A stretch of 64,000 nucleotides of DNA from a virus: UHGV virus genome UHGV-0039337; one strand, 5' to 3'. A model generated the notes under the pieces. It was not told the origin of the DNA, searched no databases, and saw nothing but the letters and a program-made list of their open reading frames with translations. Positions 5,198 through 64,000 of this stretch are shown here, in pieces; positions within the stretch are counted from its first letter, which is position 1, and the number at the start of each line of letters is the position of its first letter. Position numbers and translations under genes: made by a program.

Positions 5198-8100
5198 ATG
5201 ATTAATATAAGTTTTATACATTGTCATGTTCATACAATTTATTCTATGCTCGACGGCTACTGTAAAATAGATGACTTAATAGAAAAAGCCAAAGAATATA
5301 ATATGTCTTCAATATGTATAACTGATCATGGTACACTTGCAGGTATTTATGAGTTTAATGATAAATGCAAAAAAGCAGGATTAAAACCTATATTAGGTAT
5401 TGAAGTATATCAAACTCATGACATATCAAAAATAATACTGCCAGTAGAAGAAAGAAAAAAGATAGCTTGGGATAAATATTTAGAAATAAACAATATAACA
5501 GATGAAAAAAGCCTAGGCAAGCTAACTAATAAGAAAAAAGCAGAACTAAGTTCAGAATATATATATGATACCAAAGGATATCATTTAATCTTAATAGCAA
5601 AAAACCAAACAGGTTGGAATAATCTCGTTAAGTTAAGTAGTAAAGCAAATGATATAGCAATGTTTAATGGTAAAGGGCATATAGATTATAATTTATTAAA
5701 GCAATATAGCGAAGGATTAATATGCACTACAGCATGTATAAGTTCTATGTTTAATCATGCATTATCTAACAATAATATGGATAAAGCTGTTAAGCATATA
5801 AAAATATTATTGGATATATTTCATGATGATTTATACATAGAGTTACAACCTTTAGAATGGAATAAGCAGGTTGAAATAAATAAAAAAGCTATTAAAATAG
5901 CTAAACAATATAATATTAAAACTATAGCAACTAGTGATGTACATTATACCAATTATGAAGATGATTATGAACACGATATATTATTATGTATAGGTACTGG
6001 CAAAACATATAACGACCCTAATAGAATGAAATACGATCATGAATATTGGTTTAGAAATGAAAACGAAATGATAGATGGTTTTAATAGAAGTAATTATACA
6101 AGTGAAGAGATGCAAGCTATTAAAACTGCTATAAATAATACAACATTATTAGCAGATACTGTAGAAGATAATATACAAGTAGGTAGCGATCATGAACTAT
6201 TACCAGAGGTAGATGTACCTGAAGGTTATACAACTAAATCATGGTTAAAGCGTCAATGCTGGACTAACTTATATAAATATCTAACAGACAATAACTTAAT
6301 GGATAAACGTTATATTTATGAGTCTAGATTAAAAGAAGAACTTGATGTAATAATAACTAAAGGTTTTGCTGGATATATGTTAATAGTTCAAGACATAATA
6401 AATATTGGTCAACAAGCTGGTTGTAGTTTTGGGCCTGGACGTGGTAGCGTTGGTGGTTGTCTTGTAGCCTTCTTGCTCGGCATAAGTAAAGGAATAGATC
6501 CTATTGAATATGGATTACTATTCTTTAGATTTTTAACTGTTTCTAGAACTGCAAATCCAGATATTGATAGCGACTGCAGTCAGGTTGATAGACAAAAACT
6601 ATTAAGAATAATAAATAATAAGTATCATAACACTAATGTTACTCAAGTAGGTACATTAACTACATTAGGAGTTAAAAATGGCGTTAAAGATGTCATGCGT
6701 GTATTGAATTATAGTTTTGCAGAATCAAATGCTGTATCTAAAAAATTAGATGAAATATATGCTGAACCAGATTTATCTTTTAAAAAGCTTGATAGTTTTG
6801 AATCTGAAGATCCAGAATTATATAAAAAATATAAAGAGTTAGAATCAGAATATCCTAACGTATTTAAGTTAGCACGTAAATTTAATGGATGTCCTAGAAA
6901 TATGGGAGTACATGCTGGAGGTGTAGGTATAACACCTACTCCAATAAATGATATATATCCTACTAGAAATATTGATGGTAAAAAAGTTACTGTATGGGAA
7001 AAAGATACAATAGAAAAAGCAGGAATCGTCAAAATAGATATGTTAGGATTAAAAACTATATCTGTAATAGAATTATGCTTAAAGTTTATAAAAAAGAATC
7101 ATGATATAGATATATCATTAAACGAACTTTATAATAATAAAGAAATACGTAATGATTCTAATGTATTTAATATGCTATCAGAAGGTAAAACTGATGGTGT
7201 ATTTCAATTTGAAAGTAACTTATTTAAAAATGCTTGTAAGAACGTTAAACCTACAGATATAAATGACTTAATAGCAATTACTGCATTTAATAGACCTGGC
7301 CCATTATCTGCCGGCTTCGATAAGAAATATGCTAATAGAAAAAATGGATTAGAACCTGTAAATTATCCTTTAGGTTGTGATGATATATTAGGTGATACAT
7401 ACGGATGTCTATTATATCAAGAACAATGTATGTTAATATCAAAAAAGGTAGCTGGCTTCGATGATAATCAGGCAGATACATATTTAAGAAAATCACTAGC
7501 CAAAAAGAAACGTGCTTTAATAGATCTTTGTAGACAGTGGTTTATATATGGAAAACCTGAACATGACGAATACGGATCACCTATAGAAGGTGGTATTAAT
7601 AGAGGATATGATGAACAAGAACTTAAAGACTTTTTCGATGAGTTAGAAGGGTACGCTAGTTACGTTTTTAATAAAAGTCATGCAGCGAGTTATAGTCTTC
7701 TAACAGTAATTAGTGCATGGTTAAAATATTATTATTCTGAAGAATTCTTTGCAGCTCTTCTTACTTATTCAGTTGATGAAAAAGCTGATTTATATAATGA
7801 TATATTAAGTAAACAATATGACATACATATAACTGTACCAGATATAAAGAACTTATCTGAAAATTATAATCCAACACAAGGTAAAATAGCATATGGAATA
7901 TCTAAAATAAAAGGAGTAGGTGCTACAGCAATATCTACTATATTAAATGCAGGACCATATGAAAGTGTAGAAGATTTTATAACTAAAGTAAATAAGTATG
8001 ATAAAGCACGTGGTAGTAAAAAAACTGTTAATAAAACAGCTATTATTGCTCTTATTAAAGCAGGAGCTTTTGACTCCTTGGGTGAAACTAATAGATTTAA

Positions 8101-8509
8101 ATTAATTAATCAAGCTTATAATGCACGTAAAGATAAAGACGAAAGACTTGATGAATCTACATGGTCAAAATCTTGTGCTCAAGCATTAGAAATAGAGGTA
8201 TTAAATACATCTATAACTTATCCATTAATATTTAATTCTGCTATGGATAAAGATATTATAACTTTAGAAAACTGTAGAATAATAAACGTTACTGAGAAAA
8301 AAGATAAAAATGGTAAACTTATGGCTTTTGTAAAAGTAAAAGTTAATGATATAGAACCAGTAGATGTTGTAGTATTTAGTAGTTTATATTTAAATAATTA
8401 TGATTTATTTGATGTTAGATATGGCGATGTTATAAATATAACAGGAGAAAAAGACGGAAAGAAATTAAAATTTAAGAAAGGAAGAAGAGAAAAGAAAGAA
8501 GATAATTAA
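5198..8509 (+). CDS. dnaE: DNA polymerase III alpha subunit, DnaE-type (copy 1), with an N-terminal PHP domain
   Basis: Carries the PHP motif HCHVHTIYSMLDG, the catalytic region GPGRGSVGGCLVAFLLGIS, FNKSHAASYSLLTV..YY, and a C-terminal OB-like tail. The length is 1103 aa. Confidence 0.85.
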   Translation: MINISFIHCHVHTIYSMLDGYCKIDDLIEKAKEYNMSSICITDHGTLAGIYEFNDKCKKAGLKPILGIEVYQTHDISKIILPVEERKKIAWDKYLEINNITDEKSLGKLTNKKKAELSSEYIYDTKGYHLILIAKNQTGWNNLVKLSSKANDIAMFNGKGHIDYNLLKQYSEGLICTTACISSMFNHALSNNNMDKAVKHIKILLDIFHDDLYIELQPLEWNKQVEINKKAIKIAKQYNIKTIATSDVHYTNYEDDYEHDILLCIGTGKTYNDPNRMKYDHEYWFRNENEMIDGFNRSNYTSEEMQAIKTAINNTTLLADTVEDNIQVGSDHELLPEVDVPEGYTTKSWLKRQCWTNLYKYLTDNNLMDKRYIYESRLKEELDVIITKGFAGYMLIVQDIINIGQQAGCSFGPGRGSVGGCLVAFLLGISKGIDPIEYGLLFFRFLTVSRTANPDIDSDCSQVDRQKLLRIINNKYHNTNVTQVGTLTTLGVKNGVKDVMRVLNYSFAESNAVSKKLDEIYAEPDLSFKKLDSFESEDPELYKKYKELESEYPNVFKLARKFNGCPRNMGVHAGGVGITPTPINDIYPTRNIDGKKVTVWEKDTIEKAGIVKIDMLGLKTISVIELCLKFIKKNHDIDISLNELYNNKEIRNDSNVFNMLSEGKTDGVFQFESNLFKNACKNVKPTDINDLIAITAFNRPGPLSAGFDKKYANRKNGLEPVNYPLGCDDILGDTYGCLLYQEQCMLISKKVAGFDDNQADTYLRKSLAKKKRALIDLCRQWFIYGKPEHDEYGSPIEGGINRGYDEQELKDFFDELEGYASYVFNKSHAASYSLLTVISAWLKYYYSEEFFAALLTYSVDEKADLYNDILSKQYDIHITVPDIKNLSENYNPTQGKIAYGISKIKGVGATAISTILNAGPYESVEDFITKVNKYDKARGSKKTVNKTAIIALIKAGAFDSLGETNRFKLINQAYNARKDKDERLDESTWSKSCAQALEIEVLNTSITYPLIFNSAMDKDIITLENCRIINVTEKKDKNGKLMAFVKVKVNDIEPVDVVVFSSLYLNNYDLFDVRYGDVINITGEKDGKKLKFKKGRREKKEDN

Positions 8510-22420: not shown

Positions 22421-25400
22421 TTACGCTCCTATACTATTTATTATTATTTTATTATCATCTGTAAACTTTCCTTTAAAGTTTATAGTTTTGTCTTTTTTTA
22501 AATTACTTTTATATTTATCTAGATTGAATAATAAAGCTTCATAATTACCTTCTTTAGTATCTAATGATATAAAAGCATATCTCTTTCCTGATTTAGCTTT
22601 ACGTTTAGTCACTTTTGTTATAATAGCTTGGCCACTTACATAAATATCATTATATTTAAGGTCTTCCAGATTACAACACTTATTATGAATATAATTAGCT
22701 TGACATAAAATTAATTCTATCTCATCTTCTGATGCATATAGTTCCAGGTTAGTATCTTTATTAATGAATATAGAGTATTTAGGTGGATCTGGATGTTTTT
22801 TCTTGGCTGAAAGATAATATAATTCTTCATATAATTCTATAACATTAGAGCCAAATGCTCCTATTGCTATCATGCTATTTAATGCTTTTGTATTACATAT
22901 ACTTTTATTTACATGTTTATATATATGAGCCACTAAAGAATCATCTTTATTTTCTTTTTCTTTATTTAGCCAATAAGTAGCAGCATTATAAGCGTTCTCA
23001 GATACATTTGCAAGGCAGCAGAAGCCGAGTCTAATCCCCTCTGTTTCTACTGTACATTTGTATTTTGATTTAGTTATATCAAGAGGTAGAAATTTAATAC
23101 CTACTTTCATACATTCATTTTGTATTGTTTTAAATTTAGCTTTACGTTCATCAGTTTTACCTGATTTATTATTATACATACAAGTTAAAGTTGCCGCATA
23201 AAATTCTTTAGGATAGTAAATTTTATAATATGCTGTTTCATAACAAGTTAAAGCATAAGCTACAGCATGAGATTTGTTGAAACTATATTTCCCTGAATCT
23301 AATATTAATTGAAATATTTTTTCAAATATATCATCAGTCATAATATTTTTACTTAACTCTTTTAATTCTGCTTTATATGAAGCTATTTTATCAAATTTTT
23401 TTTTGCTAGATGATTTCATAAGCGAATATGCTTCATGCAATGGCAATCCCATATTTGCACAACATTGCATTAATTCTTCTTGATAAATCATAACTCCATT
23501 AGTTGTCTTAGTAGCTTTATCATAAGCTGGATGTATATATTCTATATTTTCTTTGCCTTCTTGTATTTTCATATAATGTTCATCGAGCCCTGATTGAATA
23601 CAAGGGCCACGGACAAGAGCAAGACAATCAGCAAGTTGTTCTATATTACGTGGGTTTAATCTTCTCATGCGTTGTTTGTAAGTATTACTGCCTATTTGAA
23701 ATAGCCCTGTAGTATTACGAGAACAGATTAAATCCCATACTTTTTTATCATTTAATGGATCAAATTCTATATCTATTTTATGACCTGTAAGTTTTTCACA
23801 TTCGCTTAATATACATAAAGTATTTAATCCTAAATAATCATATTTTACTAAGGCCTGACTTTCTGCATCATGTAAATCAAGGGCTGTAGCATTTAATTCT
23901 TTTTTGTCTTGTCTAACCATTGGTGCTACATCAGATACTTTAGATTTAACTATTAATGTACCTGCTGCATGTATAGAAGTATGACATGGTAAACCTTCAA
24001 GCTTCATAGCCATTTCAAATACTTCTGGATATATTTCTTGCCACTCTCTAAGTTCTGGTACTATCTCTAATGATTCTTCTATTGATAAATCGCTTTGCTT
24101 TTCTGTGCCATCTTCAGATTCTTCATATACACATTGAGGTATTAGTTTAGCTATTTTATCTTCGGTCTTTAAGTCTATATTATATAATTTGCATACGCTT
24201 CTTATTGATGATCTTGCTTTACGTATACTAAAAGTAGATACAGCTGCACAATGATCAAGTCCATAAGTATCTAAAGTATACTTAAACATAATATCTCTAT
24301 AGTCACTAGGCACATCTATATCTATGTCAGGGTATTGTGCCCTTGCGGTGTATACTTAAAAATCTATCAAACATAAGATTATATTTAATAGAATCTACTT
24401 TGGTTATTTGAAGTAAATAAGCAACAATAGATCCGCATACGCTGCCTCTTCCAGGGCCCATTTTTGCTCCAATCTTATTCATATATTGTATTAGATCTCT
24501 TGTTATTAAAAAATAAGAACTAAATCCTAAATCATCTATAACTTTAAGCTCTTCATACATTCTATCAACGTATTGTGCTGGATTTTTAATTTTATATTGT
24601 ATTTGATCTAATCTTTCTAAACATAATTTTTCTATATAAGTTTTAGGAATATAACCTGTAGGACATTCAAATTCTGGAAGGTTTAACTCTTCTTGGTTGA
24701 AATCATATGATTCAACTTTATTAGATAAGTCCATAGTATTGTCTAATGCTTGATTAATTATATCTGCATTATACAATTCACTATTAAAAGAATTAAAGAT
24801 TTCATCTCTAGACATCATATAATATATTTTATCTGCATATATACTTTCATCTTCATTTTCTGGTGCTTTTAAATTACGCGTAATTCTTATATGAAAATCA
24901 TGAGTTTTCCAATCTTCCTTATTTATATAATGCACATCATTAGTAGCAATGAGTTTAATGTTTTTCTCTTCTGCTATATTAATCATTGCATTATTAACTT
25001 TAATTTGTTCATCAAAATTACCTGGTTGAATTTCTAAATATAAGTCATCTCTGAACATATTATATAATTCTTCAATATGATTAATAGCTTGTTCATTTTC
25101 ATTGTTTATAATAAGTTGAGGGGCATATCCTCCTACACAAGCTGTAGTACAGATAAGCCCCTCAGTATAGTCTTTTATATGTTCTAAATCTATACGTGGT
25201 TTATAATAATAATATTCAACAGATGCATCTGATACTATTTTCAATAAGTTAGATATGCCTGTTTTATTTTTAGCTATTAATACCATATGATATAACTTTT
25301 TATGTTCACTGTCTTTAATAGTACAGTCTTCACATAAATATATTTCACAGCCTATAAGTGGTTTAATATTATTGTTTATACACTCATAATAGAATCCATA

Positions 25401-25857: not shown

Positions 25858-26253
25858 TTATTCCTTTCTATATTCTTTACATTCTTGATTATTATATTCT
25901 AATATTTCTCTTAATATTGATCTATGACATATAATATCATTTTTTTCATAACAGATAAGGAATATAGTATATCCTTCATTATTTAAATCTATTATTTCTT
26001 TTAATCCATCAATGAAAAATGGATTGTCAAATGACTCATCTATATATTTTTGTCTATACTCTTTCCAATCAATACTACCATCTTTATACTTGGCTAATGT
26101 AAGTTCCGTGGGCGCAAGTTGAGGCGCCCACTCTATATTATATTTTTTTACGTTTATAGTATTTCTAGGTTTCCATCTAGTTATTAAAAATTTCTTAGTT
26201 GTATCATCATTTGGTAGATTTTTTAAGTTAGACAAATAAGTTGTGTATATCAT
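25858..26253 (-). CDS. DUF488-family protein
   Basis: LITRWKPRN...WAPQLAPTELTLAKYKDGSIDWKEYRQKY...IFLICYEKNDIICHRSILREIL matches the DUF488 pattern (W.P.LaPS..L...y..g.i.W.eF...Y..e ... C.E......CHR). Confidence 0.5.
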   Translation of the reverse strand: MIYTTYLSNLKNLPNDDTTKKFLITRWKPRNTINVKKYNIEWAPQLAPTELTLAKYKDGSIDWKEYRQKYIDESFDNPFFIDGLKEIIDLNNEGYTIFLICYEKNDIICHRSILREILEYNNQECKEYRKE

Positions 26254-26549
26254 TAATGACAGCCACCATTACAAACTCCATTACAATCTCTACTACATGT
26301 ATGTGCTTTTGATTCATTTAAGTTATGAGAAAACTTTTCTTTTCTTGAATCATACTTTTCTTGCATCATACTTCCAGTAGAACCATAACCATCTGCACCT
26401 CTTGTAGTTTCATCTAATTCATCTACTATAAAAGGTTGTGCTTCAAGTACTGGACATAATACTAATTGCGCAATTTTAGCATATTTCTTTAATACAAATG
26501 GTTCTGTTCCTATATTTTCTAGTTCAATACCTATTTCTCCTCTATATTT
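26253..26549 (-). CDS. dut: dUTPase exon 2 (motifs III C-terminal half, IV and V)
   Basis: Begins KYRGEIGIELENIG, then ...AQLVLCP, then TRGADGYGSTG (motif V). The TTG used by the ORF caller is in fact the last codon of the intron, ending in omega-G. Confidence 0.7.
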   Translation of the reverse strand, partial: KYRGEIGIELENIGTEPFVLKKYAKIAQLVLCPVLEAQPFIVDELDETTRGADGYGSTGSMMQEKYDSRKEKFSHNLNESKAHTCSRDCNGVCNGGCH

Positions 26550-27401
26550 CAATTTGTTATGTATAGGCTCTTTATCCTATACTCTCCTACTTTCGTAGAA
26601 GTATCGGACTATATCATTAACTCTCATATAGAGAGCAGAGCGGGGCGCTCGTGTCGGTTTTATTGTTTACCTTACTCAACCGTTAGTCTCTGAACCTTCC
26701 GTATACTTTATAGGCTTCTACGGCTTGGCTGCTGATTAGCATATCTTTCGACTTAGCCTTCCAGCAATTCACCCCGTTTAAAGACTCCAAATTTATTTTG
26801 CTTTATTATATTTTCCTAAAATGTCATGTAATTTGGAATGCTTTGATCTTGATAATATAATTAAATTAGTAGGATCATTATTTATTTTATTTTCATCTAT
26901 ATGATGTACATCATAATTTGGATTTAAATACCATTTGCCATCTATTAATACTGCACAAGATTCAGTAAGTAAATACTGTTCTGCAATTAGCCTATGCTCT
27001 CTAATTCTTCCGAATTTATTTGCAAAAGGATGATCGGGAACATAAACATATATGTAATCATTATACAGTATTTTATTTTGAGTAAAACTAGCATTCAATG
27101 GACCTTTTAATCCATATTGATGATTTCCTTCTCCTTTCATATAATTACTTTTATTGATAATATTACACTCTTCTGAACAAGTTATCATATCTGGATGTTT
27201 TAGTCTTTTAAGTCTTGAAGGTTTAACATAAAATTTTGTGCCGCATATACAACATGAAACATTTGGTTTTTTATTCCATTTATTATACATGTCAGCACAC
27301 GCATGACTACAAACATTTTTTCTATGCTTTTTTATATTATCTGTTTCGTATTCTTCATTACAATAATCGCAATGTCTTAACAATTAAGCGACATCTCCCT
27401 T
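26550..27401 (-). mobile_element. Group I intron (852 nt) in dut with an HNH homing endonuclease gene
   Basis: Splits dUTPase motif III (GTIDS | KYRGEI). Exon 1 ends in U and the intron ends in G. The GC-rich 3' core contains canonical R (GGUUCAGAGACUAAC) and S (AAUGAUAUAGUCCGA) elements forming P7, GACUA paired with UAGUC. Confidence 0.7.
26793..27383 (-). CDS. Intron-encoded HNH homing endonuclease
   Basis: Carries DVHHIDENKINNDPTNLIILSRSKHSKLH (HNH) plus N-terminal Cys-rich zinc fingers. It is in frame with dut exon 1, separated only by TAA, and the ORF caller used a TTG start. Confidence 0.6.
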   Translation of the reverse strand: MLRHCDYCNEEYETDNIKKHRKNVCSHACADMYNKWNKKPNVSCCICGTKFYVKPSRLKRLKHPDMITCSEECNIINKSNYMKGEGNHQYGLKGPLNASFTQNKILYNDYIYVYVPDHPFANKFGRIREHRLIAEQYLLTESCAVLIDGKWYLNPNYDVHHIDENKINNDPTNLIILSRSKHSKLHDILGKYNKAK

Positions 27402-27740
27402 AGAGTCTATAGTACCTGGAGCATTAGGTATTCTTATTTTAGTTTTTAAACCATTACCACTTGTAGGTCTAGCTTGCAATTCTGTGCCTAATGGTATAGA
27501 TGATGCCCAACCAGTGCATGCTAATACTGTTTCTCCTGGCATTATTATCCATGAGGAAACTCCTTTTGCAAAATCTTTATTATCCTCATATGGTTTTTTG
27601 TCTTCATTGAGTCTTTTTAATGCTATTGCAAACACATCCATTCCGCTATCTCCTGGATGTGCATATTTTAATTCTATAGCATCTTCTCTTAATCTTTTTA
27701 CTTTAATAGGCACTTGCGTATAAAAATTCAGTTTAATCAC
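27402..27740 (-). CDS. dut: dUTPase exon 1 (motifs I, II and the N-terminal half of III)
   Basis: Contains HPGDSGMDVFA (motif I), ARPTSGNGLK (motif II-like) and ends GTIDS at the 5' splice site. Confidence 0.7.
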
Positions 27741-39618: not shown

Positions 39619-40775
39619 CGTTTTGTTATCAATAGGCTTTTTATCCTATTTTCTGGGGCATTATACCCATTATGAACCTGTTAATTCAGGTTCCAGTCCA
39701 GCATATCTTTTCATGGATTAAATACCACACCATGGAACGGCCTCGTGGACACATTATATTCTACATAGTAGTTTCAGTGTCTATGCGTTGCGGCTGGTTA
39801 AGCTTTTAAACTTATCCTTCACCTCTGATTACGGACATTACCCGCTTTCCAGATTTTTTCCGTTCTAATAATTCTAAGACTTCTGTGGTTTCGTCTTAGA
39901 ACGGCTAATAAATCGTCCTTTTTCATCTCTTGAGATATATGGATGCTCAAGAGCATGACAGTCTTGACATAATGTGATTCCGTTATTAATATCATTAAAT
40001 TCTTTTGAATTTAATATCTTATCTATATTCATATCATATTTATTGCATATATCATATAATTGATTTACATGGTGAGCATGTAAGTTCTTTTTTGTTTTAC
40101 ATTTAGAACATTCATATTTGTCTCTTTTAAGGATCTTTGCTCTCCATTCATCATATTTTTCATGCGTGCGTAAATAATGCGAAATTTCTTTGTAAGTTTC
40201 TTTCTTATTGGTTCTATATTCATCATAGCATTCTTTACTACAAAAGTGCTTTTCGGCTCTATTATATGCATATTTATTTTTTTCAAATTCTTTATTACAA
40301 TTATCACATATTACAATTTGAGTTTCTTTTTTTGCATATTCAATTCTGCATTTTTTATTACAGAAATGCAGATTATGTTTATTTTTAACAGCTAGCACTT
40401 CTTTTCCACAATTATTACATTTAACAAATTCTTTATTTTTACGTTGTTCTGCTATTCTGCATTCAATAGAACAATATTTTGGAATTTGTCCACGCTTACT
40501 TTGTTTATTATAATATGATTCTTTAAGCTTAAAATTTTTACCACAATGTTGACAAATAAGCGAAATTTCTTTACTATATTTTACTTTTCCTTCTTGTTTT
40601 GCTAATTTAGCATGCTCTTTACAGCAATGAAATACTTTATTTTTGCTTTCATTGTATCTTGTAATGGTAATTTTAAACTCTTTATTACAATAATTGCATT
40701 TGACTATCATTATATATCACGTCCTTAATATATTTATTTATTAAGGTATTACCGTGAATGAACGATTTATTTATT
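39619..40775 (-). mobile_element. Group I-type intron (about 1157 nt) in the AAA+ ATPase gene, with an HNH homing endonuclease
   Basis: Separates the Walker B exon (...LLIDEVEKNLGG, ending GGU) from the sensor-1 exon. The GC-rich core at 39619-39873 is homologous to the helicase intron core. The 5' junction is uncertain by +/-1 nt because of a 1-nt conflict between my count and the ORF track. Confidence 0.5.
39874..40710 (-). CDS. Intron-encoded HNH endonuclease with multiple CxxC zinc fingers
   Basis: C-terminal HAHHVNQLYD...NGITLCQDCHALEH (HNH), with six or more CxxC pairs N-terminal. Confidence 0.65.
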   Translation of the reverse strand: MIVKCNYCNKEFKITITRYNESKNKVFHCCKEHAKLAKQEGKVKYSKEISLICQHCGKNFKLKESYYNKQSKRGQIPKYCSIECRIAEQRKNKEFVKCNNCGKEVLAVKNKHNLHFCNKKCRIEYAKKETQIVICDNCNKEFEKNKYAYNRAEKHFCSKECYDEYRTNKKETYKEISHYLRTHEKYDEWRAKILKRDKYECSKCKTKKNLHAHHVNQLYDICNKYDMNIDKILNSKEFNDINNGITLCQDCHALEHPYISRDEKGRFISRSKTKPQKS

Positions 40776-51595: not shown

Positions 51596-52537
51596 CGATT
51601 GTACCGTTTCTTTCGAAATACTTTAACATCGTTTTATACGATCGGTCTAGACTATATCTTCAACTCATATTCTTTTACCGAATATGAGTTGCTTGGTACT
51701 TCCGGTCAGGATTTTCACCTAATTACCCGTACTCTACTCGGTTATTCTCTTAGATATTTCTTCTAAGATATCCTTTCGATAGTCGTTTGACTTTATTTTA
51801 TATTATATAGCTTCATAAGTTATTATATAGTTTTTTAATTTTCCTCTACTTGGCATAGGTTTTTTACCCTCTGCATATAATCCTAAAACCGTTATATTTC
51901 CCGCTGAATATCCAAAGTATCTTGCTAATTCTGATAGTGATACGAATTCTTTAATAAAGTTTCCTTCTCTATCATAAAGGTATACATGCTTATTGCAAGT
52001 ACAACAATCATCACCGTATGCTTGCTGTGTGTTTTCGGATATTGTGCCCCATTTTAGGTTTGTATAATGATTATTTAATTTATTGTTATCTAAATGTAAT
52101 ACTATAGGGTAATCATTTGGATTTTCTAAATAAGTCATAGCGACTAATCTATGCACCCTAAAATGTCTTCTTATTCCATCTTTACATACTAACAATAAAT
52201 CTTCATAACCATCTTTCATTATTCTTGTCGATAAAAACCTTTTTAATATTTTTGAATATATTTGCCCATCTTCGGTTATACTATAATAATCTTGTTTTAT
52301 ATTGAAGCAATCCAAATCTTTTATAAAAATCATCTCCTAATAATTTTTATAAGAAATGGCATAATATAAAATCTTAGCACAGGATTAGCATACCTATATG
52401 GCTTTAGCCTCCCCTGTTAGCACACTCATTAATAACCATTTCCTGTTATTACTAATATACGCTGAGTGTACACCCTAGTTTTTAGGTTCACCAAGTTTTT
52501 CATTATATATCACTATATAAAGGCGGCCGATATTTTA
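51596..52537 (-). mobile_element. Group I intron (942 nt) in the ribonucleotide reductase gene, with an HNH_3-type homing endonuclease
   Basis: Splits ...IGQKGRRG | ALMISMDVSHPDI (conserved RRGA.M...HPDI). Exon 1 ends in U and the intron ends in G. The core has R (GUCAAACGACUAUCG) and S (AAGAUAUAGUCUAGACC) elements. Confidence 0.7.
51803..52333 (-). CDS. Intron-encoded HNH_3-family homing endonuclease
   Basis: VLHLDNNKLNNHYTNLKWGTISEN is an HNH_3 motif. Confidence 0.6.
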   Translation of the reverse strand: MIFIKDLDCFNIKQDYYSITEDGQIYSKILKRFLSTRIMKDGYEDLLLVCKDGIRRHFRVHRLVAMTYLENPNDYPIVLHLDNNKLNNHYTNLKWGTISENTQQAYGDDCCTCNKHVYLYDREGNFIKEFVSLSELARYFGYSAGNITVLGLYAEGKKPMPSRGKLKNYIITYEAI

Positions 52538-57910: not shown

Positions 57911-60342
57911 TATTCCTCTACCTCTTCTATTTGCTCTTCAGGTAAACAAGTAACAGCTACTACATAGTCGTCTTTATCTAAGTTAATTAATTTAGTGCCT
58001 GTAGTATGTCTACTAGAATGAGCAATATTATTCGCATCTATTCTTATAGTTTTGCCATTAGCTGTAGCTATAAGTATATTAGCATTATCTAATATAAACG
58101 CAGATACAACAGGACCTGTTTTATCACTTACTTTATGACAGAAAATACCTTTGCATCCTCTAGACTTAGAAGCAAATTCTTCTTCATTAGTTGCTTTAGC
58201 TATACCATATTTAGTTACAGTAACTACTTCTGTATTAGAATGCATAGATAATATACCTATTACTTCGTCACCTTCACTTAGTTTTATACCTTTAACACCT
58301 CTAGCTGATCTACCACTAGGTCTTACTGTATTAGAGTTGAATCTAGTAGATAAACTATTAGCAGTAAGTATCATAACTTCTTCGTCGTCTTTAGCTAATA
58401 AAGCTCCTACTACTTCATCATCATCTACTAATCCCATTACTTTAGTAACGTTAAATCTATTAGATAATTGTGCTAATGCTAAACGTTTTATTTGTCCTTT
58501 TTTACTTACAAGAACAAGATAGCGTTCTTTGTCATTAAGATTAGTAGCTAATGTTTTAATAGGATACTCTCCTTCTTCCATAGATACAAAGTTAGCTAAA
58601 TTTTTACCACGAGAGGACTTATTTACTTTAGGTATTTTATATGCTTTAACTGTATGACATCTACCTGTATTAGTTATAAATAATAAGTCATCTTTACTGT
58701 TAATAGTAAATAAATCTACTACTAATTCATCGTCTTTAGTATCGGCTCCTTTAGAACCTTTACCAGCTCTTCTTTGTTTATTATATTCATTAGTAGCTAC
58801 AGATTTTATATTTTGATCACTTGTAACAGTAACTATTAATTCTTCATCTTTAATTAGATCTACTAATTCTATTTCATCTTCTAGCTCTATTGCTGTACGT
58901 CTTTCATCTCCATATTTATTTTTCATTTCGGTAAATTCTTCTATTAATTGTTTTAATATTACTTCGTCGTCTTTTGTTAGGTTTATTAAATGAGGTAGTT
59001 GTTCATACATATTAGATAAATCTGTTTCTACTTTTTCTTCAGATACTTTAGACAATCTTGATATTTTCATATCATATACATATTTAGCTTGTTCTTCTTC
59101 TAAGTCAAGTTCATCTTGTAATGATTGTATAGGATTATCTTCTTCTCTTATAATATGAATAACTTTATCTATATTTTCTATAGCTTTTTGTACGCCTTCT
59201 AATATTAATATATTATGATTTAATTTAGTTAAATCATATTGAGAGCGTCTGCGTACTATTTCCATACTGTGTATAATAAATTGTTCAAGACAATCAAGTA
59301 TGCCGAATTCTTTAGGCATTCCGTCTAATAATGCTTTAACATTATAATTTATAGATATTTGTAAATCTGTTTTAGATAATAAATGTTTTATTACTAAATC
59401 TGGATTAGCACTTTTTTTAAGTTTAATTTGTATATTACAGTTTTCTGTACGTTTAGTTACATCTAAAACTTCACGTATGCCTTCTACTTTATTATCTATA
59501 CGTAAATCATCTATTTTGTTTACTAGTTTTAATTTATTTACTTGGTATGGTAGTTCTGTAATTCTAATTATTTTATTATGTCTTTTATCTTCTTCTATAT
59601 CGTATTTACATCTTAAAATTACTTTTCCTTTACCTTCGCTTATTATTTTAAGCCATTCTTTATTAGAAGTTATTATTCCCCCATCTGGAAAATCTGGGCC
59701 TTTTATTATTTTAGCTATATCACTACATTCATACTCTTCATCTTTTAATGCTTTATCTATCATAAATAATATCGCATCATATATTTCTGTTAAATTATGA
59801 GGTGGTACATAAGTAGACATAGACACGGCTATACCGTTTGTTCCATTAGCTAAAAAGTTAGGCAATAAAGATGGTAACGTCATAGGTTCTTTTAAAGTAT
59901 TGTCAAAGTTATCCATATAATTAACAGTATCTTTTTCTATATCTTTACATACAGCATCTCCATATTTAGATAAATGACATGTAGTATATCTATAAGCGGC
60001 AGCTTTAAATCCATCTCTATTACCAAATGAAGTAGTTGTATCTATTAAAGGATATCTCATTACCCAATTTTGTCCTAATCTGGTAAGCGCATCATATAAT
60101 GAGATATCGCCGTGTGGATATGTCGTTGCTAATACTGAACCTACTACTTTTGCACATTTTTTTTCTGGATCTGTACTTTTCATTCCATGAGTATACATAT
60201 CCCATATTATTTTTCTACCTGATGGTTTTAATCCCGTATTTACATCAGGTATTGCTCTATCTCCTATAACAGCTAATGCATAAGCTTTATATCTAGGAGC
60301 TAGAGCGTCGCCTACTGATTTTTCTATAATATGTTCAGCCAC
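57910..60342 (-). CDS. Type II topoisomerase subunit A (GyrA/ParC-like)
   Basis: YKAYALAVIGDRAIPDVNTGLKPSGRKIIWDMY matches the GyrA N-terminus (Yam..i..RAlPDvrDGLKPv.RR.l). The length is 810 aa. Confidence 0.8.
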   Translation of the reverse strand: MAEHIIEKSVGDALAPRYKAYALAVIGDRAIPDVNTGLKPSGRKIIWDMYTHGMKSTDPEKKCAKVVGSVLATTYPHGDISLYDALTRLGQNWVMRYPLIDTTTSFGNRDGFKAAAYRYTTCHLSKYGDAVCKDIEKDTVNYMDNFDNTLKEPMTLPSLLPNFLANGTNGIAVSMSTYVPPHNLTEIYDAILFMIDKALKDEEYECSDIAKIIKGPDFPDGGIITSNKEWLKIISEGKGKVILRCKYDIEEDKRHNKIIRITELPYQVNKLKLVNKIDDLRIDNKVEGIREVLDVTKRTENCNIQIKLKKSANPDLVIKHLLSKTDLQISINYNVKALLDGMPKEFGILDCLEQFIIHSMEIVRRRSQYDLTKLNHNILILEGVQKAIENIDKVIHIIREEDNPIQSLQDELDLEEEQAKYVYDMKISRLSKVSEEKVETDLSNMYEQLPHLINLTKDDEVILKQLIEEFTEMKNKYGDERRTAIELEDEIELVDLIKDEELIVTVTSDQNIKSVATNEYNKQRRAGKGSKGADTKDDELVVDLFTINSKDDLLFITNTGRCHTVKAYKIPKVNKSSRGKNLANFVSMEEGEYPIKTLATNLNDKERYLVLVSKKGQIKRLALAQLSNRFNVTKVMGLVDDDEVVGALLAKDDEEVMILTANSLSTRFNSNTVRPSGRSARGVKGIKLSEGDEVIGILSMHSNTEVVTVTKYGIAKATNEEEFASKSRGCKGIFCHKVSDKTGPVVSAFILDNANILIATANGKTIRIDANNIAHSSRHTTGTKLINLDKDDYVVAVTCLPEEQIEEVEE

Positions 60343-60356
60343 GCTATCTTCCTCCC

Positions 60357-60755
60357 CTATAATATCGTATAATCTTCTTCAGACATTATATATTGTCTTT
60401 TTTCTGTATTCATTACTTTGCTATTCATACACATAGAAACTATTTTATTAGCTTCTTCTGCGTCTTCAATTGTTATTTTAATTAGTGTTCTATGTTCTGG
60501 ATTCATAGTTGAATCCCATAAACCTTCTGCTGATAATTCACCTAATCCTTTTAAATAAGTTATATTTAATTTTTTATTAGGATATTGTTGTTTAATAGAA
60601 TTTAATTCAGCATCATCTATAGCATATAACGTAGTATTTTTATCTACTATAATCTTATATAATGGTGGGCATGATAAATATAAATAACCTTCTTCTATTA
60701 TAGGTCTAAAATATCTATAAAATAATGTTATATACAAAGTAGCTATATGATAACC
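60357..60755 (-). CDS. Type II topoisomerase subunit B (GyrB/ParE-like), exon 3 (C-terminal)
   Basis: Begins GYHIATLYITLFYRYF and carries GYLYLSCPPLYKI (the GyrB PPLYK motif). Confidence 0.7.
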   Translation of the reverse strand, partial: GYHIATLYITLFYRYFRPIIEEGYLYLSCPPLYKIIVDKNTTLYAIDDAELNSIKQQYPNKKLNITYLKGLGELSAEGLWDSTMNPEHRTLIKITIEDAEEANKIVSMCMNSKVMNTEKRQYIMSEEDYTIL

Positions 60756-62013
60756 CGATTACACCCTCGGTTTCCCGATATTTATCAGGGGTCTAGACTA
60801 TACCTTCGCCATTTCAGGCGCACTGAACGTAGTCGTTGGACTCCTCCTGTTCGGAGTCGGCTGCTGATTTTCCATTAATTCACCCTTAGCACGTATTTAA
60901 TAATACGCTTTTGTCTCAGCTTAGGTAATCCTCAATACTTTTTTCTGCTTTCGCAACATTCATATAAGTTTGTTTCATCTTATATTGTAGTGATTAAGGC
61001 TTTAGGAATTCCCAGCAAGCGGTCAGTGTAATAATCCTATAGGTTATTATTCCCTATAAGACGACTATATTTATAAATTAATTATATTTTAAATAGAGAT
61101 TTAAATAACGTTCAAATTTGCGTTCCATATATATAGTACAATCTAAATATAACCAACTCATTATTTGATATACTTGATTATCACCACATAATCTTAAACT
61201 TTGAACGTTTCCGTCTCCGTTTTTATGTCTTTTTTGTAATTTTACATTCTCTTTATTTAAAATTGTTTTAAGCGTTTCTAAAAATTCTGTAGTACCTAAT
61301 ATACTAATATCATAAGTATGATATTTTTTATCTCCTGATATTGACAGAGATCCATCTCCATCAAAATATCCTCTAATAAAATGTCTTTGTAATTCTTTTG
61401 GTACTATATCCTCTGAAGGAAATAAACAATGATTGGTTTTATCAAGGCTAAAACCTTTATTAACTAAATCTTGATACATCTTTTTGCTAGTTATAACCAT
61501 TTTTGACTCTCTTGTAATACAATCAAAACTTTTATTGTAATGTTCATAATCTCTTATTGGATACGTAGAGTCTATATCTTTTTTAAATTTTTCTATCATA
61601 TTACGATCTTTTGTGGCTAACGTTAATCCTATTTCATTCCCTCTATTTGTTATATATCCATCAGCCATTAAAAAACCCAACCAATAAGCTTTATGTTCTG
61701 TATCAATAACTTCAAAGTAATTATCATTTACTTTATTTCTTCTTAAATCATCAGGACTTTTCTTTTGATATAGTCCTGCTTTAATTAAAACTGGATAAAT
61801 AGTTTGAGGTTTTCTATCTTTTAACGATTCTTTATTCTCACAAATCCATTTTACGCTATGTCCCTCTTTATATTTATTGCATATCCATTTTTTATCTTCT
61901 TCAGAAAATGATTTTCTTATTCTTTTTGTCAATATATTCACCCCAATATTTAGTTTCTTTATCTAAATATTACGGTGAACGTAGACGCTTATAATAATTA
62001 TTTATAAATCTTA
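60756..62013 (-). mobile_element. Group I intron (1258 nt) in gyrB-like, with a LAGLIDADG homing endonuclease
   Basis: Splits DADVD | GYHIATL (GyrB Toprim DADVDG.HI.tLLLTFF). Exon ends in U and the intron ends in G. The core has R (GUCCAACGACUAC) and S (AGGUAUAGUCUAGACC) elements. Confidence 0.7.
61078..61941 (-). CDS. Intron-encoded double-motif LAGLIDADG homing endonuclease
   Basis: KAYWLGFLMADGYI and RHFIRGYFDGDGSL. Confidence 0.7.
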   Translation of the reverse strand: MNILTKRIRKSFSEEDKKWICNKYKEGHSVKWICENKESLKDRKPQTIYPVLIKAGLYQKKSPDDLRRNKVNDNYFEVIDTEHKAYWLGFLMADGYITNRGNEIGLTLATKDRNMIEKFKKDIDSTYPIRDYEHYNKSFDCITRESKMVITSKKMYQDLVNKGFSLDKTNHCLFPSEDIVPKELQRHFIRGYFDGDGSLSISGDKKYHTYDISILGTTEFLETLKTILNKENVKLQKRHKNGDGNVQSLRLCGDNQVYQIMSWLYLDCTIYMERKFERYLNLYLKYN

Positions 62014-63202
62014 ATCAACATCGGCATCGCTCATTATTATTATCTTATGATATCGTAAGTTATCTATATTAAAATCTTCACCTATACCACACTCTAAACT
62101 ATATAATATATCTTTTAATTTATCAGATGATAATACTTTATCTAAAGTCATTTCTTCTACATTTGGTATTTTCCCGAATACAGGTAATATTGCTTGAGTA
62201 TTCTTGTCACATGCGGTAGTTGCTGTAGAAGCTGCACTATCACCTTCAACTAAAAATATTTCGCAAGCTTCAGGATCTTTACTAGCACATTTTACTAATT
62301 TTTCAACTTTTTTATTAGCGAAATTTTTATTCTTTCTTGCAGCTTCTTTTGCTTTATAGGCGGCTTCTCTGATCTTGTTTGATTCAATAACTTTATTAAG
62401 TATATTATCTTTATCATTCGGTAGTTTATCAAATTGATCTTCACAAAACTCCTTTACTTCACTATACAATATGCTTGCTATTACAGGCATATTTAAATAA
62501 TCTTTTCCTTGTCCTATATAGTTAGGATCTGGTACCTTGACACTAACTACTGCTATTATACCTTCACGTGTGTCTTCTGCTGTTAATTGTGTTTTAGATT
62601 TAGGATATTCATTTTCAAAGCAATCTTTAACAGCTGTAGCTATACCACGTTTAAATCCTGTTATATTAGAAGATTTACCATCGGTATTTATAACATTATT
62701 AGTAAACGCTATTATATTATCACTATAAGCCTGAGTCCAAGCAAAAGCTACAGATATTTCACACGATTTATCATTATCCATTTCAACTGATTTAGTTAAG
62801 AACCAAGGATCATGAATACTTTCTTTGTTAGCTGTAAGTTCTTCAACATATGCTTTAACACCCTCTGGATAATTATAGATTTCATGTATGTTATAGTCCC
62901 CATATTCTATATCTACTTTAATAGTAAGTTCAGGATTAAGATAGCATATTTGTTTCATTCTGCTATTAATAGCTGGTATATTAAAATCATCTTTATCAGC
63001 CCATATTTCAGGATCTGGTTCACATTGTATAAGAGTCATAGTAAAGTCTTCACGTGATATTTCTTCTACTTCGTGTAATTTATGAGTCACTAATCCTTGT
63101 TCAAATTCCATATCATATACTTTACCACCAGTATATATTTCAACATGGAACCATTTAGATAAGAAGTTTATACATGATGCTCCTACGCCATTTACAATAG
63201 TT
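62014..63202 (-). CDS. GyrB/ParE-like subunit B, exon 2 (transducer and Toprim)
   Basis: The in-frame extension upstream of the called Met gives TIVNGVGASCINFLSKWFHVEIYTGGKVYD (GyrB HGVGvSvVNALS region). Further on are FLVEGDSAAST and IMSDADVD (Toprim). Confidence 0.65.
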
Positions 63203-63868
63203 CACATAGGTTCGCTATTCCTATGCCGCACTATTACGTGCAGCCTCTAGTTTTCACTAGGGATCGGACTATATCATCACCCTTTAATAAGGGGTTCTCC
63301 ATTTCCATTTAATAGGTAATTAAGAGCCTTATTACGGCTCACCTAACCGCTTGGCTGTACTCTACTCACTTCTGTTACTATCAGAATCGCTTTCGATAGT
63401 CTCTGAACTTTCATTTATTCCATTTAAATAACCAAATTCTTGTTCTTTTTCTCTTCTAAAATCAATACACATCTGTTTAGCTTGTTCATAACCATATTTT
63501 TTACACGATCTTGATATTCTACATTTTTTATGTTCATTATCTTTTATTTCTGCAATCCAAGAATCTCTACTTTTATCATATCTTACACCTTTTATTCCGC
63601 TTGTGTTACATTCTCTTAATGATGTATTTTTTAAATTTTCGTGTCTTGTTGTTATTCTTAAATTGTTTTTACGATTATCCAGACCGTTATGATTTAAATG
63701 ATCTACAACAATGTCGTAACCTTCTACGTCTAATATTAATCTGTGCAAATATATTGGTTATATAAAATAAATGTTTAGCTGCTGATTGCCATATGCTTAT
63801 GCACTTAGGTTTCCAGCAATTAAAAGAATTTTTCGATACACATTACTGCGTAAAGGGACTAAATAGTT
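63203..63868 (-). mobile_element. Group I intron (about 666 nt) in the gyrB-like ATPase-domain region, with an HNH-AP2 homing endonuclease
   Basis: The core has R (GUUCAGAGACUAUCG) and S (GAUAUAGUCCGAUCC) elements. It separates ...FEEGVKSAGL from (T)IVNGVGAS. The exact junction is ambiguous because AACUAUU occurs at both boundaries. Confidence 0.55.
63362..63748 (-). CDS. Intron-encoded HNH endonuclease with an AP2-like DNA-binding domain
   Basis: VDHLNHNGLDNRKNNLRITTRHEN is the HNH motif, and GIKGVRYDKSRDSWIAEI is AP2-like. Confidence 0.6.
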   Translation of the reverse strand: MHRLILDVEGYDIVVDHLNHNGLDNRKNNLRITTRHENLKNTSLRECNTSGIKGVRYDKSRDSWIAEIKDNEHKKCRISRSCKKYGYEQAKQMCIDFRREKEQEFGYLNGINESSETIESDSDSNRSE

Positions 63869-64000
63869 AATCCAGCTGATTTAACACCTTCTTCAAATTT
63901 AGTACCAGCTTTTAATCTAGACATACATAATTCAGCTATGGTACATCCTGGTATTTCATCTGATTCTTCTGTAGGTAACGCACCTGCGCTATCTGTTACT
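63869..64000 (-). CDS. GyrB/ParE-like subunit B, exon 1 (partial, continues beyond the window)
   Basis: The reading frame gives ...EIPGCTIAELCMSRLKAGTKFEEGVKSAGL, matching the GyrB GHKL ATPase region (S.aEvimt.LHAGGKFd...YKvSGGLHGVG). Confidence 0.5.

What the first reader, a model, noticed from the sequence alone, without database searches (positions are those of the whole stretch)
26550..27401. Group I intron carrying an HNH homing endonuclease interrupts dUTPase motif III
The dUTPase is encoded in two pieces. The 27740-27402 piece ends ...NAPGTIDS and the 26549-26253 piece starts KYRGEIGI..., which together rebuild the canonical GtIDsdYRGE motif III. The 852 nt between them begin right after a U and end in G. 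They contain an HNH ORF followed by a GC-rich segment with textbook group I R and S elements, GGUUCAGAGACUAAC and AAUGAUAUAGUCCGA, forming P7 as GACUA paired with UAGUC. Self-splicing introns are known in phage thymidylate synthase, ribonucleotide reductase and polymerase genes. An intron in dut is, as far as I know, uncommon.
Basis: partly seen in the sequence, partly recalled or inferred. Interest (0 to 1): 0.6.

Follow-up and report, generated by a model that had tools for sequence, protein, structure and literature searches.

The report
Mobile group I intron in dUTPase
The phage's dUTPase gene really is interrupted by a self-splicing group I intron that carries its own HNH homing endonuclease, but the same kind of intron at the same spot is already annotated in crAssphage, so this is a well-supported new member of a known kind rather than a surprise.

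Summary
Confirmed. On the minus strand, dut is split into exon 1 (27740-27402) and exon 2 (26549-26253) by an 852-nt insert (27401-26550). Rfam's group I intron model scores 80.8 bits (E 1.5e-20, cut-off 50) on 26830-26584. Uninterrupted homologues, including a collinear relative about 90% identical in protein, read [12 protein letters not shown] straight across the predicted junction. The guide sequence GGAGUC lies just after the HNH gene, so the endonuclease gene sits in the P1 loop. P1, P10, P3, P6a, P7.1, P8, P9 and P9.1 all show compensatory changes across related introns. The intron is present in some close relatives and absent from others, as expected of a mobile element.

The crAssphage reference genome is annotated with an intron-encoded HNH endonuclease in dUTPase. 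That intron sits at the same codon boundary, its endonuclease is 39% identical and its ribozyme is homologous. At least 17 IMG/VR viral contigs carry it too.

Splicing and homing are inferred, not shown. The window holds at least five more endonuclease-bearing gene interruptions. It also holds a conserved apparent +1 frameshift site in dnaE, which may be the more interesting observation.

The parts
27402..27740 (-). dut exon 1 (113 codons if it starts at GTG 27740). It carries motifs I and II and the first half of motif III, ending ...NAPGTIDS.
   Evidence: The intron-less homologue in L005 aligns at 98% identity to 27716-27399.
27402..27407 (-). P1 5' strand, GACUCU. The 5' splice site follows U27402, which forms a G.U wobble with the first G of the guide sequence.
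   Evidence: 6/6 pairing with GGAGUC. Positions -2 and -3 covary with the guide sequence across 11 introns.
26550..27401 (-). Group I intron, 852 nt.
   Evidence: Rfam RF00028 80.8 bits. It is exactly the stretch missing from intron-less alleles.
27395..27399 (-). Shine-Dalgarno-like GGGAG just inside the intron, about 11 nt upstream of the endonuclease start codon.
   Evidence: Read from the sequence. Its function is inferred.
27384..27386 (-). UAA that ends the exon-1 reading frame 18 nt into the intron. It directly abuts the UUG start of the HNH ORF.
   Evidence: The relatives L003, L004, L006, L007 and L008 have an overlapping UAGUG instead.
26793..27383 (-). HNH homing endonuclease gene (196 aa, UUG start) with an N-terminal Cys-rich region and a C-terminal HNH_3 domain (DVHHID...N...H). 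It lies in the loop of P1.
   Evidence: Pfam HNH_3 1.6e-6. PHROGs HNH endonuclease families, best 2.3e-16. 39% identical to crAssphage gp35 'intron-encoded HNH endonuclease'.
26783..26792 (-). Internal guide region. AUUU (26792-26789) pairs with the first bases of exon 2 to form P10. GGAGUC (26788-26783) pairs with the end of exon 1 to form P1.
   Evidence: P10 covaries with the first codon of exon 2: AAAU/AUUU here, GUUUA/UAAAU in L003 and L004, GGUUA/UAACU in crAss-like introns.
26694..26776 (-). 5' half of the ribozyme core. P3 5' strand CGGGGUG (26776-26770). P4 UGCUGG/UCAGCA (26766-26761 with 26735-26730). P5 hairpin with a GAAA loop (26758-26738). P6 GCC/GGU (26729-26727 with 26696-26694). 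P6a (26723-26699).
   Evidence: Rfam alignment, coordinates, covariation in P3 and P6a, segment folds.
26550..26688 (-). 3' half of the ribozyme. P7 GACUA/UAGUC (26688-26684 with 26611-26607). P7.1 (26681-26656). P3 3' strand CGCCCCG (26647-26641). P8 (26635-26621). P9 with a GAAA loop (26601-26584). P9.1 with the conserved loop AUAAAGAG (26582-26561). Terminal G at 26550.
   Evidence: Model R1 188.9 bits. 20 of 28 pairs show changes on both sides across 21 related introns.
26253..26549 (-). dut exon 2 (98 codons plus stop). It starts KYRGEIG (second half of motif III) and carries motifs IV and V and a Cys-rich tail CSRDCNGVCNGGCH.
   Evidence: Pfam dUTPase on exon 2 alone, 1.1e-10.

Best explanation
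The 852 nt at 27401-26550 (minus strand) are a mobile, self-splicing group I intron inserted in dUTPase motif III, between the Ser and Lys codons of [10 protein letters not shown]. In the pre-mRNA, the guide sequence GGAGUC lies 4 nt after the endonuclease stop codon. It pairs with the last six exon-1 bases, GACUCU, to form P1 with a U.G wobble at the splice site. The adjacent AUUU pairs with the first exon-2 bases, AAAU, to form P10. The core (P3-P8, with a P7.1 extension between P7 and P3' as in subgroup IA phage introns, plus P9 and P9.1) would bind guanosine at P7. It would then carry out the two transesterifications, release the intron after G26550 and produce an mRNA for a complete 211-aa (or 208-aa) trimeric-type dUTPase. 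The 196-aa HNH enzyme encoded in the P1 loop is the homing endonuclease. During mixed infection it would cut or nick intron-less dut alleles near this highly conserved motif, and repair from the intron-bearing copy would spread the intron. Its UUG start abuts the stop codon of the exon-1 frame and follows a GGGAG, so it is probably translated from unspliced RNA by ribosomes arriving from exon 1 or loading at that site. Shown here: the anatomy, the exact junction, the conserved and covarying RNA structure, homology to other dut introns, and the patchy distribution. Inferred: catalysis, endonuclease activity and homing.
For: (1) Rfam RF00028 gives 80.8 bits against a cut-off of 50, E 1.5e-20, over the full model length. 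The same model gives 84.1 and 82.9 bits on the relatives L001 and L007.
(2) Uninterrupted homologues P0001-P0004 (77-83% identical by BLASTP) read [21 protein letters not shown] across the junction. L005 is collinear with the window and about 90% identical in protein. It lacks exactly this stretch.
(3) Of the three insertion points that the AA repeat allows, only the one given follows a U and ends in G.
(4) Five truncated protein clusters (P0036, P0039, P0057, P0061, P0066) end ...DSKG(D/N)VA. Their contigs carry the same HNH gene and ribozyme at the same site.
(5) Covariation on 11 introns: 96.2% of cells paired and 10 pairs changed on both sides, with 0 of 500 shuffles reaching the observed percentage paired or covariation score. 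P1 is 100% paired, with C-G/A-U/G-C at position -2 and U-A/G.U/G-C at position -3. P10 is 97.7% paired.
(6) On 21 introns aligned to model R1: 93.4% paired, 20 of 28 pairs changed on both sides, covariation score 0.519 against 0.134 for shuffles.
(7) ORF-less versions (L027, L031) have the guide sequence 11 and 44 nt after the splice site, so the ORF is an insertion in the P1 loop.
(8) The ribozyme alone folds at -66 kcal/mol, z = -3.1. The minimum-free-energy fold recovers P4, P5, P6a, P7.1, P9 and P9.1, plus a P8-region hairpin.
(9) The ORF matches HNH_3 and PHROGs HNH families.
(10) The spliced product has all five dUTPase motifs.
Against: There is no RNA evidence. Splicing, GTP dependence, endonuclease activity and homing were not and could not be tested here. 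No P2 helix is present, since only UUUAAA separates P1 from P3, so the subgroup assignment is incomplete. The alignment behind one search was fitted to the model and leans towards the structure. The sequences are related, so the shuffle controls overstate significance. P4, P6 and P7 never vary and so say nothing either way. Rfam missed the intron in whole-window scans and missed the crAss-like homologues.
Confidence: 0.93

Rival explanations
1. The insert is a decayed intron that no longer splices. On this view dut is a pseudogene in this phage and the host's dUTPase, or none, is used.
For: Decay does occur in this family. L007 has an internally deleted endonuclease gene (84 aa) and a stop codon early in exon 2. 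No RNA data exist.
Against: In the window every core element and the guide sequence are intact and pair perfectly. Both exons keep open frames with all five motifs. The endonuclease ORF is full length. The near-identical intron in L001 and L009 is equally intact.
Confidence: 0.04
2. The gene is truly split. A free-standing endonuclease gene separates two halves that are translated separately and assemble into an active dUTPase without RNA splicing.
For: Gene callers predicted the exon-2 piece as its own protein, starting at the UUG formed by the last three intron bases (P0106; ORF 26552-26253). Endonuclease-split genes with complementing halves are known in T4-like phages (established knowledge).
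Against: A conserved, covarying 240-nt ribozyme would then have no reason to exist. There is no Shine-Dalgarno sequence before the exon-2 UUG. The split falls inside motif III, between the catalytic Asp-Ser and YRGE. ORF-less versions of the same intron (L027, L031) still interrupt dut.
Confidence: 0.02
3. The insert is an intein, removed at the protein level, or an assembly artefact.
For: Inteins also target conserved motifs of phage nucleotide-metabolism enzymes (established knowledge). Within the same intron family, an upstream exon in L041 ends ...VVHNC, like an intein C-terminus.
Against: The exon-1 frame hits UAA 18 nt into the insert. No Hint or intein domain was found. The same arrangement was assembled independently in at least seven metagenome contigs from different samples.
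Confidence: 0.01

Closest known systems
Intron with HNH endonuclease in the dUTPase gene of crAssphage (Carjivirus communis BK010471, KP06_gp34/gp35) and other Crassvirales (cr1_1 MT774380, cr50_1 MT774375)
   Same: Same host gene and same insertion point: after the T-ending codon that follows the motif III Asp, and before xYRGE. Examples are GACUAU|...G|GGCUAUCGU and GACUCU|...G|GGUUACAGA. The endonuclease is homologous (34-39% identity over 94-98% of its length). The ribozyme is homologous (57-64 bits with model R1; shared GACACGAGYGCCCYGC, GAUAUAGUCCGA and the GGAUAAAGAGCC loop). The endonuclease gene lies in the P1 loop and the guide sequence follows it, covarying with the exon. The crAssphage intron is recorded in GenBank annotation and in PMC7551546.
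   Different: The host phage is unrelated: about 28% G+C, DnaE-type polymerases, and nearest cultured relatives among Firmicutes phages at only 30-34% protein identity. In the crAss-like copies the endonuclease ORF starts about 60-70 nt after the exon-frame stop and runs on into the ribozyme core. Here it starts at the stop codon and ends 4 nt before the guide region. P5, P7.1/P7.2, P8 and P9 differ in length and sequence. The window's 3' domain scores higher against introns in other genes (L013, L030, L041: 101-105 bits) than against the crAss-like dut introns, which suggests modular evolution.
Phage T4 td, nrdB and nrdD (sunY) group IA2 introns with I-TevI, I-TevII and I-TevIII
   Same: Self-splicing group I introns in phage deoxynucleotide-metabolism genes. 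They are inserted at conserved catalytic motifs, carry a homing endonuclease, are patchily distributed among relatives, and have extra helices between P7 and P3' (established knowledge; P7.1 shown here).
   Different: The host gene differs. Two of the three T4 enzymes, I-TevI and I-TevII, are GIY-YIG enzymes, and from memory the T4 ORFs lie in downstream loops (P6 or P9 regions), not in the P1 loop. There is no P2 here.
Bacillus phage SPO1/SP82 DNA polymerase intron with the HNH endonuclease I-HmuI/I-HmuII
   Same: A group I intron in a phage of low-G+C bacteria that encodes an HNH-family homing endonuclease (established knowledge).
   Different: The host gene differs. No detectable sequence match between this HNH protein and any solved structure, I-HmuI included, was found. 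Nicking versus double-strand cutting is unknown here.

Membership tests
Group I catalytic intron (Rfam RF00028) | Covariance-model score above the curated gathering score | tested here: met
   80.8 bits against 50, E 1.5e-20, model positions 1-253 of 253, at 26830-26584 minus strand. It was missed in whole-window runs because of the speed filters.
Group I catalytic intron (Rfam RF00028) | Conserved core pairings P3, P4, P6, P7 and P8, with P/Q/R/S elements, supported by covariation | tested here: met
   All are present. P3, P6a, P7.1, P8, P9 and P9.1 show changes on both sides. P4, P6 and P7 are invariant, so they are uninformative.
Group I catalytic intron (Rfam RF00028) | 5' splice site after a U that forms a G.U wobble in P1 with an internal guide sequence | tested here: met
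   GACUCU pairs with GGAGUC. P1 is 100% paired in 11 introns, with compensatory changes at positions -2 and -3.
Group I catalytic intron (Rfam RF00028) | Terminal G at the 3' end and P10 pairing with the 3' exon | tested here: met
   The intron ends ...AAAUUG (G26550). P10 AUUU/AAAU covaries with the first exon-2 codon and is 97.7% paired.
Group I catalytic intron (Rfam RF00028) | Removal restores an intact host reading frame identical to intron-less alleles | tested here: met
   P0001-P0004 and L005 read [10 protein letters not shown] across the junction.
Group I catalytic intron (Rfam RF00028) | Guanosine-dependent self-splicing | not testable with these tools
   This needs in vitro transcription with GTP, or RNA from infected cells.
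Subgroup IA group I introns (typical phage type) | Extra helices P7.1/P7.2 between P7 and the 3' strand of P3 | tested here: inconclusive
   A P7.1-like closing helix, GGUU/AACC, is present and covaries (AAUU/AAUU in L003; AGC/GCU, AAC/GUU and AGU/ACU in crAss-like copies). An inner P7.2 hairpin is clear in the crAss-like copies but not in the window. No P2 is present. No formal subgroup classifier was available.
Intron-encoded HNH homing endonuclease | HNH catalytic motif or domain above the Pfam cut-off, encoded inside the intron | tested here: met
   PF13392 HNH_3, 28.0 bits against 24.8. PHROGs HNH endonuclease families, best 2.3e-16. The motif is DVHHID...N...H, at 27383-26793 within the P1 loop.
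Intron-encoded HNH homing endonuclease | Patchy presence and absence at one site among close relatives, and the same site occupied in distant lineages | tested here: met
   Among dUTPase clusters at least 54% identical, about 35 are uninterrupted and 5 are truncated at the junction. L005 lacks the intron but carries a dnaE intron that the window lacks. The same site is occupied in Crassvirales.
Intron-encoded HNH homing endonuclease | Site-specific cleavage of the intron-less allele and homing | not testable with these tools
   This needs a cleavage assay or phage crosses.
Trimeric dUTPase (Pfam PF00692) | Profile match above the cut-off and all five conserved motifs in the spliced product | tested here: met
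   58.6 bits against 22. Motifs: I [49 protein letters not shown]. Exon 1 alone gives no Pfam hit.

The most novel reading that the evidence does not exclude
The intron belongs to one family dedicated to the dut motif III site that has moved between unrelated phage lineages, namely Crassvirales of Bacteroidota and this low-G+C, DnaE-encoding large phage. In this lineage it has also evolved a translational switch. Ribosomes reading exon 1 cross the 5' splice site, stop 18 nt into the intron and restart at the abutting UUG (UAGUG overlap in the sister clade) to make the endonuclease. While they do so they cover the P1 5' strand. Endonuclease expression and splicing of a given transcript would then be mutually exclusive and set by the translation rate.
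Probability: 0.25. Interest if true: 0.45.

Novelty: new member of a known kind. Interest (0 to 1): 0.3.

Why it matters
For annotation, this phage's dUTPase is intact, not a pair of fragments. Gene callers in public collections split it into a 117-118-aa piece, an HNH gene and a 90-122-aa piece. Rfam at default settings misses the intron, so such introns are probably under-counted in viral metagenomes. For biology, one intron and endonuclease family occupies the same codon boundary of dut motif III in Crassvirales and in an unrelated phage of about 28% G+C. This gives a clean case for studying how homing elements cross phage lineages through a universally conserved target. The family alignment, with covarying P1 and P10 and natural ORF-less and ORF-decayed members, is ready material for ribozyme and endonuclease-specificity work. 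None of this overturns current understanding.

Tried and rejected
- Whole-window Rfam scans, at gathering and at E-value thresholds, found nothing. This was rejected as evidence of absence, because a 1.6-kb scan gives 80.8 bits. Rfam also returned nothing for the crAss-like loci, for three of the five relatives and for 60300-64000.
- Megablast of the locus against 50,697 phage records found no match, so the phage is not a sequenced isolate.
- A guide sequence immediately after the 5' splice site (GGGAG) was rejected. It gives only 3 pairs and a 2-nt loop, whereas GGAGUC after the ORF gives 6 pairs and covaries.
- An intein was rejected because of the in-frame UAA 18 nt into the insert.
- The HNH protein had no meaningful hit among solved structures.
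- The dUTPase found no relative in 185,579 bacterial and archaeal genomes, so no host or prophage clue came from there.
- The MAFFT alignment A3 put P5, P7.1, P8, P9 and P9.1 out of register between clades. Those helices were therefore assessed by folding each segment and on a model-fitted alignment.
- A literature search for 'group I intron', 'dUTPase' and 'phage' returned papers that mention both terms separately. Only PMC7551546 describes the crAssphage dUTPase intron.
- One Pfam call failed on a wrong reading frame, and one script failed on a file name.

Full report
**1. What is in the sequence**

On the minus strand an ORF beginning at GTG 27740 reads ...[11 protein letters not shown] and runs on for six more codons (KGDVA, then stop). 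A second ORF (26552-26253) reads (M)[12 protein letters not shown].... Between them lies a 196-aa ORF (27383-26793) followed by about 240 nt without an ORF.

- The 852 nt from 27401 to 26550 start after a U and end in G.
- Exon 1 (339 nt) plus exon 2 (294 nt and a stop codon) give 211 aa. This product matches Pfam dUTPase at 58.6 bits (cut-off 22). Exon 1 alone matches nothing.
- The internal ORF matches HNH_3 (28 bits, cut-off 24.8) and several PHROGs HNH endonuclease families.

**2. Is it a group I intron?**

Rfam's RF00028 matches 26830-26584 (minus strand) over its full length at 80.8 bits, E 1.5e-20, against a gathering score of 50.

The two whole-window Rfam runs returned nothing. The speed filters lose this intron in a larger search space. 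The same loss occurred for three of five relatives and for the crAss-like copies. This is a practical warning for automated scans.

The ribozyme region alone (26806-26550) folds at -66 kcal/mol, z = -3.1. The minimum-free-energy structure recovers P4, P5, P6a, P7.1, P9 and P9.1, plus a P8-region hairpin.

**3. The junction**

A search of 5.8 billion proteins with the spliced product found many uninterrupted homologues. P0001-P0004 are 77-83% identical.

- These homologues read [27 protein letters not shown] straight across the predicted junction.
- P0001 lies on a 43-kb contig (L005) that is collinear with the window and about 90% identical in protein. Its dut maps to 27716-27399 and 26549-26256 with nothing in between.
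- At the DNA level L005 reads GGAACTATAGATTCT-AAATATAGAGGAGAA.
- A shared AA leaves three formally possible insertion points.

**4. The same intron in relatives**

Five protein clusters (P0036, P0039, P0057, P0061, P0066) stop at ...DSKG(D/N)VA, the read-through into the intron. Their contigs (L001-L004, L006-L008) show the dut piece, an HNH gene, a ribozyme, then the second dut piece.

- L003 and L004 carry a longer, different P4-P6 region but the same 3' domain.
- L007 has an internally deleted endonuclease gene (84 aa) and a stop codon in exon 2, the expected decay stage.
- Among the closest dUTPase clusters roughly 35 are uninterrupted and 5 interrupted, so the intron is patchily distributed.

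**5. Architecture and covariation**

The only good guide sequence is GGAGUC (26788-26783), 4 nt after the endonuclease stop codon. It pairs with GACUCU at the end of exon 1. The AUUU just upstream pairs with AAAU at the start of exon 2 to form P10. The endonuclease gene therefore sits in the loop of P1. Only UUUAAA separates P1 from P3, so there is no P2.

A pattern taken from the 3' domain found 38 loci in IMG/VR.

- At least 17 of these loci interrupt dut at the same codon boundary.
- L027 and L031 are ORF-less, with the guide sequence 11 and 44 nt after the splice site. This confirms the P1-loop placement.

On an alignment of 11 such introns with the ORF removed (A3), results were as follows:

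| Measure | Result |
|---|---|
| Cells paired (P1, P10, P3, P4, P6, P6a, P7) | 96.2% |
| Pairs changed on both sides | 10 |
| Shuffles reaching the observed pairing or covariation score | 0 of 500 |
| Pairing when partners are slid | 31-45% |
| P1 position -2 | C-G, A-U, G-C |
| P1 position -3 | U-A, G.U, G-C |

P10 follows the first exon-2 codon: AAA, GUU, AUU, GGU or GAU.

The peripheral helices were misaligned by MAFFT. They were therefore folded segment by segment, and every sequence keeps P5, P6a, P7.1, P8, P9 and P9.1 hairpins with different stems. A covariance model of the 3' half (R1) was then used to align 21 introns.

- 93.4% of cells are paired and 20 of 28 pairs changed on both sides.
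- The covariation score is 0.519 against 0.134 for shuffles.
- That alignment is fitted to the model and the sequences are related, so these numbers are supportive rather than probabilities.

A helix between P7 and the 3' strand of P3 (P7.1, with a P7.2 hairpin in the crAss-like copies) points to the subgroup IA type usual in phages. I could not run a formal subgroup test.

**6. How it most likely works**

The anatomy is shown. The chemistry is inferred from what is established for group I introns. P1 presents U27402 as a G.U wobble. Guanosine bound at P7 attacks that site. P10 then aligns exon 2, and the exon-1 3'-OH attacks after G26550. The result is a complete dUTPase mRNA.

The unspliced message can only give a 118-aa fragment lacking YRGE and motifs IV and V.

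The HNH protein would cleave or nick intron-less dut alleles at this conserved motif during co-infection and convert them.

One detail is specific to this clade. The exon-1 frame stops at UAA 27386-27384 and the endonuclease UUG start follows immediately, with GGGAG 11 nt upstream. The sister clade has an overlapping UAGUG. Endonuclease protein conservation begins at residue 2, so these non-AUG codons are the real starts. This suggests termination-reinitiation coupling. It also suggests competition between ribosomes and P1 formation. Both points are inference.

**7. Comparison with what is known**

tblastn with the HNH protein hit the crAssphage reference genome BK010471. There KP06_gp35 is annotated 'putative intron-encoded HNH endonuclease' inside KP06_gp34 'putative Dut dUTPase, contains intron insertion' (39% identity over 94%). 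It also hit cr1_1 and cr50_1, which are annotated dUTPase / intron-encoded HNH / dUTPase. PMC7551546 states that the crAssphage dUTPase is split by an intron-encoded HNH endonuclease.

I checked the sequences.

- The crAss-like introns sit at the same boundary: GTLDY|GYRGE, GVVDS|GYRGE and GVIDC|GYKGE.
- They use the same guide-sequence-after-ORF design with compensating guide changes (GUAGUC, GCAGUC).
- They match model R1 at 57-64 bits.

What differs is the host phage. It has about 28% G+C and no near match among sequenced phages. Its DnaE-type polymerases are only 30-34% identical to those of Moorella and Bacillus phages, and it has no relative in GTDB genomes. The endonuclease ORF boundaries and several peripheral helices also differ.

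The window's 3' domain resembles introns in other genes (L013, L030, L041: 101-105 bits) more than the crAss-like dut introns do. This hints at exchange of ribozyme modules.

**8. Context**

The window is a replication and nucleotide-metabolism module. It is heavily colonised, with five more endonuclease-type ORFs lying between pieces of split genes (details under 'noticed in passing').

L005 lacks the dut and uvrD insertions but has a dnaE intron that the window lacks. This is direct evidence that these elements come and go within this phage group.

**9. Verdict**

The element is a new member of a known kind, with a published precedent for the same gene and, as shown here, the same site. Interest is modest at 0.3. 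Confidence in the group I intron plus homing endonuclease explanation is 0.93. The remaining doubt is whether this particular copy still splices.

Noticed in passing
window 24325-24345 (minus strand); L005 13810-13840: The second DnaE-type polymerase gene is broken inside its catalytic PDIDID motif. ORF A (25577-24327) ends ...HRKGTIP-stop, and the motif CCU GAC AUA GAU AUA GAU is read only after a +1 shift at AAGGGCACAAUA-CCC-UGA-C. This resembles the prfB (RF2) CUU-UGA-C site with its upstream Shine-Dalgarno-like element. The identical site, with synonymous changes just upstream, is present in the relative L005, so it is not a sequencing error. A distant relative (L051) reads ERFLDPDRKELPDIDLDF in one frame. 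It may be a programmed +1 frameshift, and it may be more interesting than the dut intron.
   Followed up: partly
window about 63860-63150 and about 62013-60745 (minus strand): gyrB appears to carry two further group I-like introns. One splits the GGLHGVG region and holds an HNH_3+AP2 ORF (63748-63362), with P, Q, R and S elements at 63821, 63787, 63407 and 63275. The other follows IMSDADVD and holds a LAGLIDADG ORF (61941-61078), with a core around 60885-60800, and the exon resumes GYHIATLYITLFYRYF. Rfam found nothing there. Model R1 gives a weak hit at 63215-63330.
   Followed up: partly
window 36933-35781 (minus strand): The UvrD-like helicase is split. L005 residues 1-35 map to 37038-36934 and residues 26-627 map to 35780-33975. 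The insert carries a LAGLIDADG ORF (36850-36044) and an R1-like 3' tail (GGAUAAAAAGCC...AUAACAAAUU) at 35883-35755. It is absent from L005.
   Followed up: partly
window 39619-40710 and 51650-52333 (minus strand): There are two more candidate introns. An HNH_2-like ORF (40710-39874, below the Pfam cut-off) lies upstream of an AAA+ lid fragment, with an R1 hit at 39701-39619 (33 bits). An HNH_3+NUMOD1 ORF (52333-51803) lies just upstream of a ribonucleotide reductase ORF that matches only profile positions 358-973 of 975, with a GATATAGTC element at 51658.
   Followed up: no
window 26253-26300 (minus strand); alignment A1: This dUTPase clade ends in a conserved Cys-rich tail after motif V, CSxxCxGxCxGGCH (CSRDCNGVCNGGCH here). 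The tail is joined to motif V by a highly variable linker of 0 to about 40 residues. That pattern is unusual for dUTPases and might bind a metal or mediate an interaction.
   Followed up: no
L007 937-1772: This relative shows intron decay. The endonuclease gene is internally deleted (84 aa) while the ribozyme is intact (82.9 bits), and exon 2 has a premature stop (GGAAAAGAATAAGAA).
   Followed up: no
L014 and L020; L013, L030, L041, L019: The same ribozyme family occurs elsewhere. In L014 and L020 it appears to sit in dut two codons upstream (exon 2 starts A GAC GCA GAU UAC AGA). It also occurs in other genes: an unidentified gene resuming PYPQKGVATG (L013 type), a ribonucleotide-reductase-like exon resuming EIPMPAYSLCCLGALNL next to a possible intein end ...VVHNC (L041), and twice in L019.
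   Followed up: no
window 5198-8509 (+) and 25577-22421 (-): The window encodes two DnaE-type Pol III alpha homologues on opposite strands. One is an intact 1103-aa copy. The other is the frameshifted copy, and the two are about 27-35% identical.
   Followed up: no
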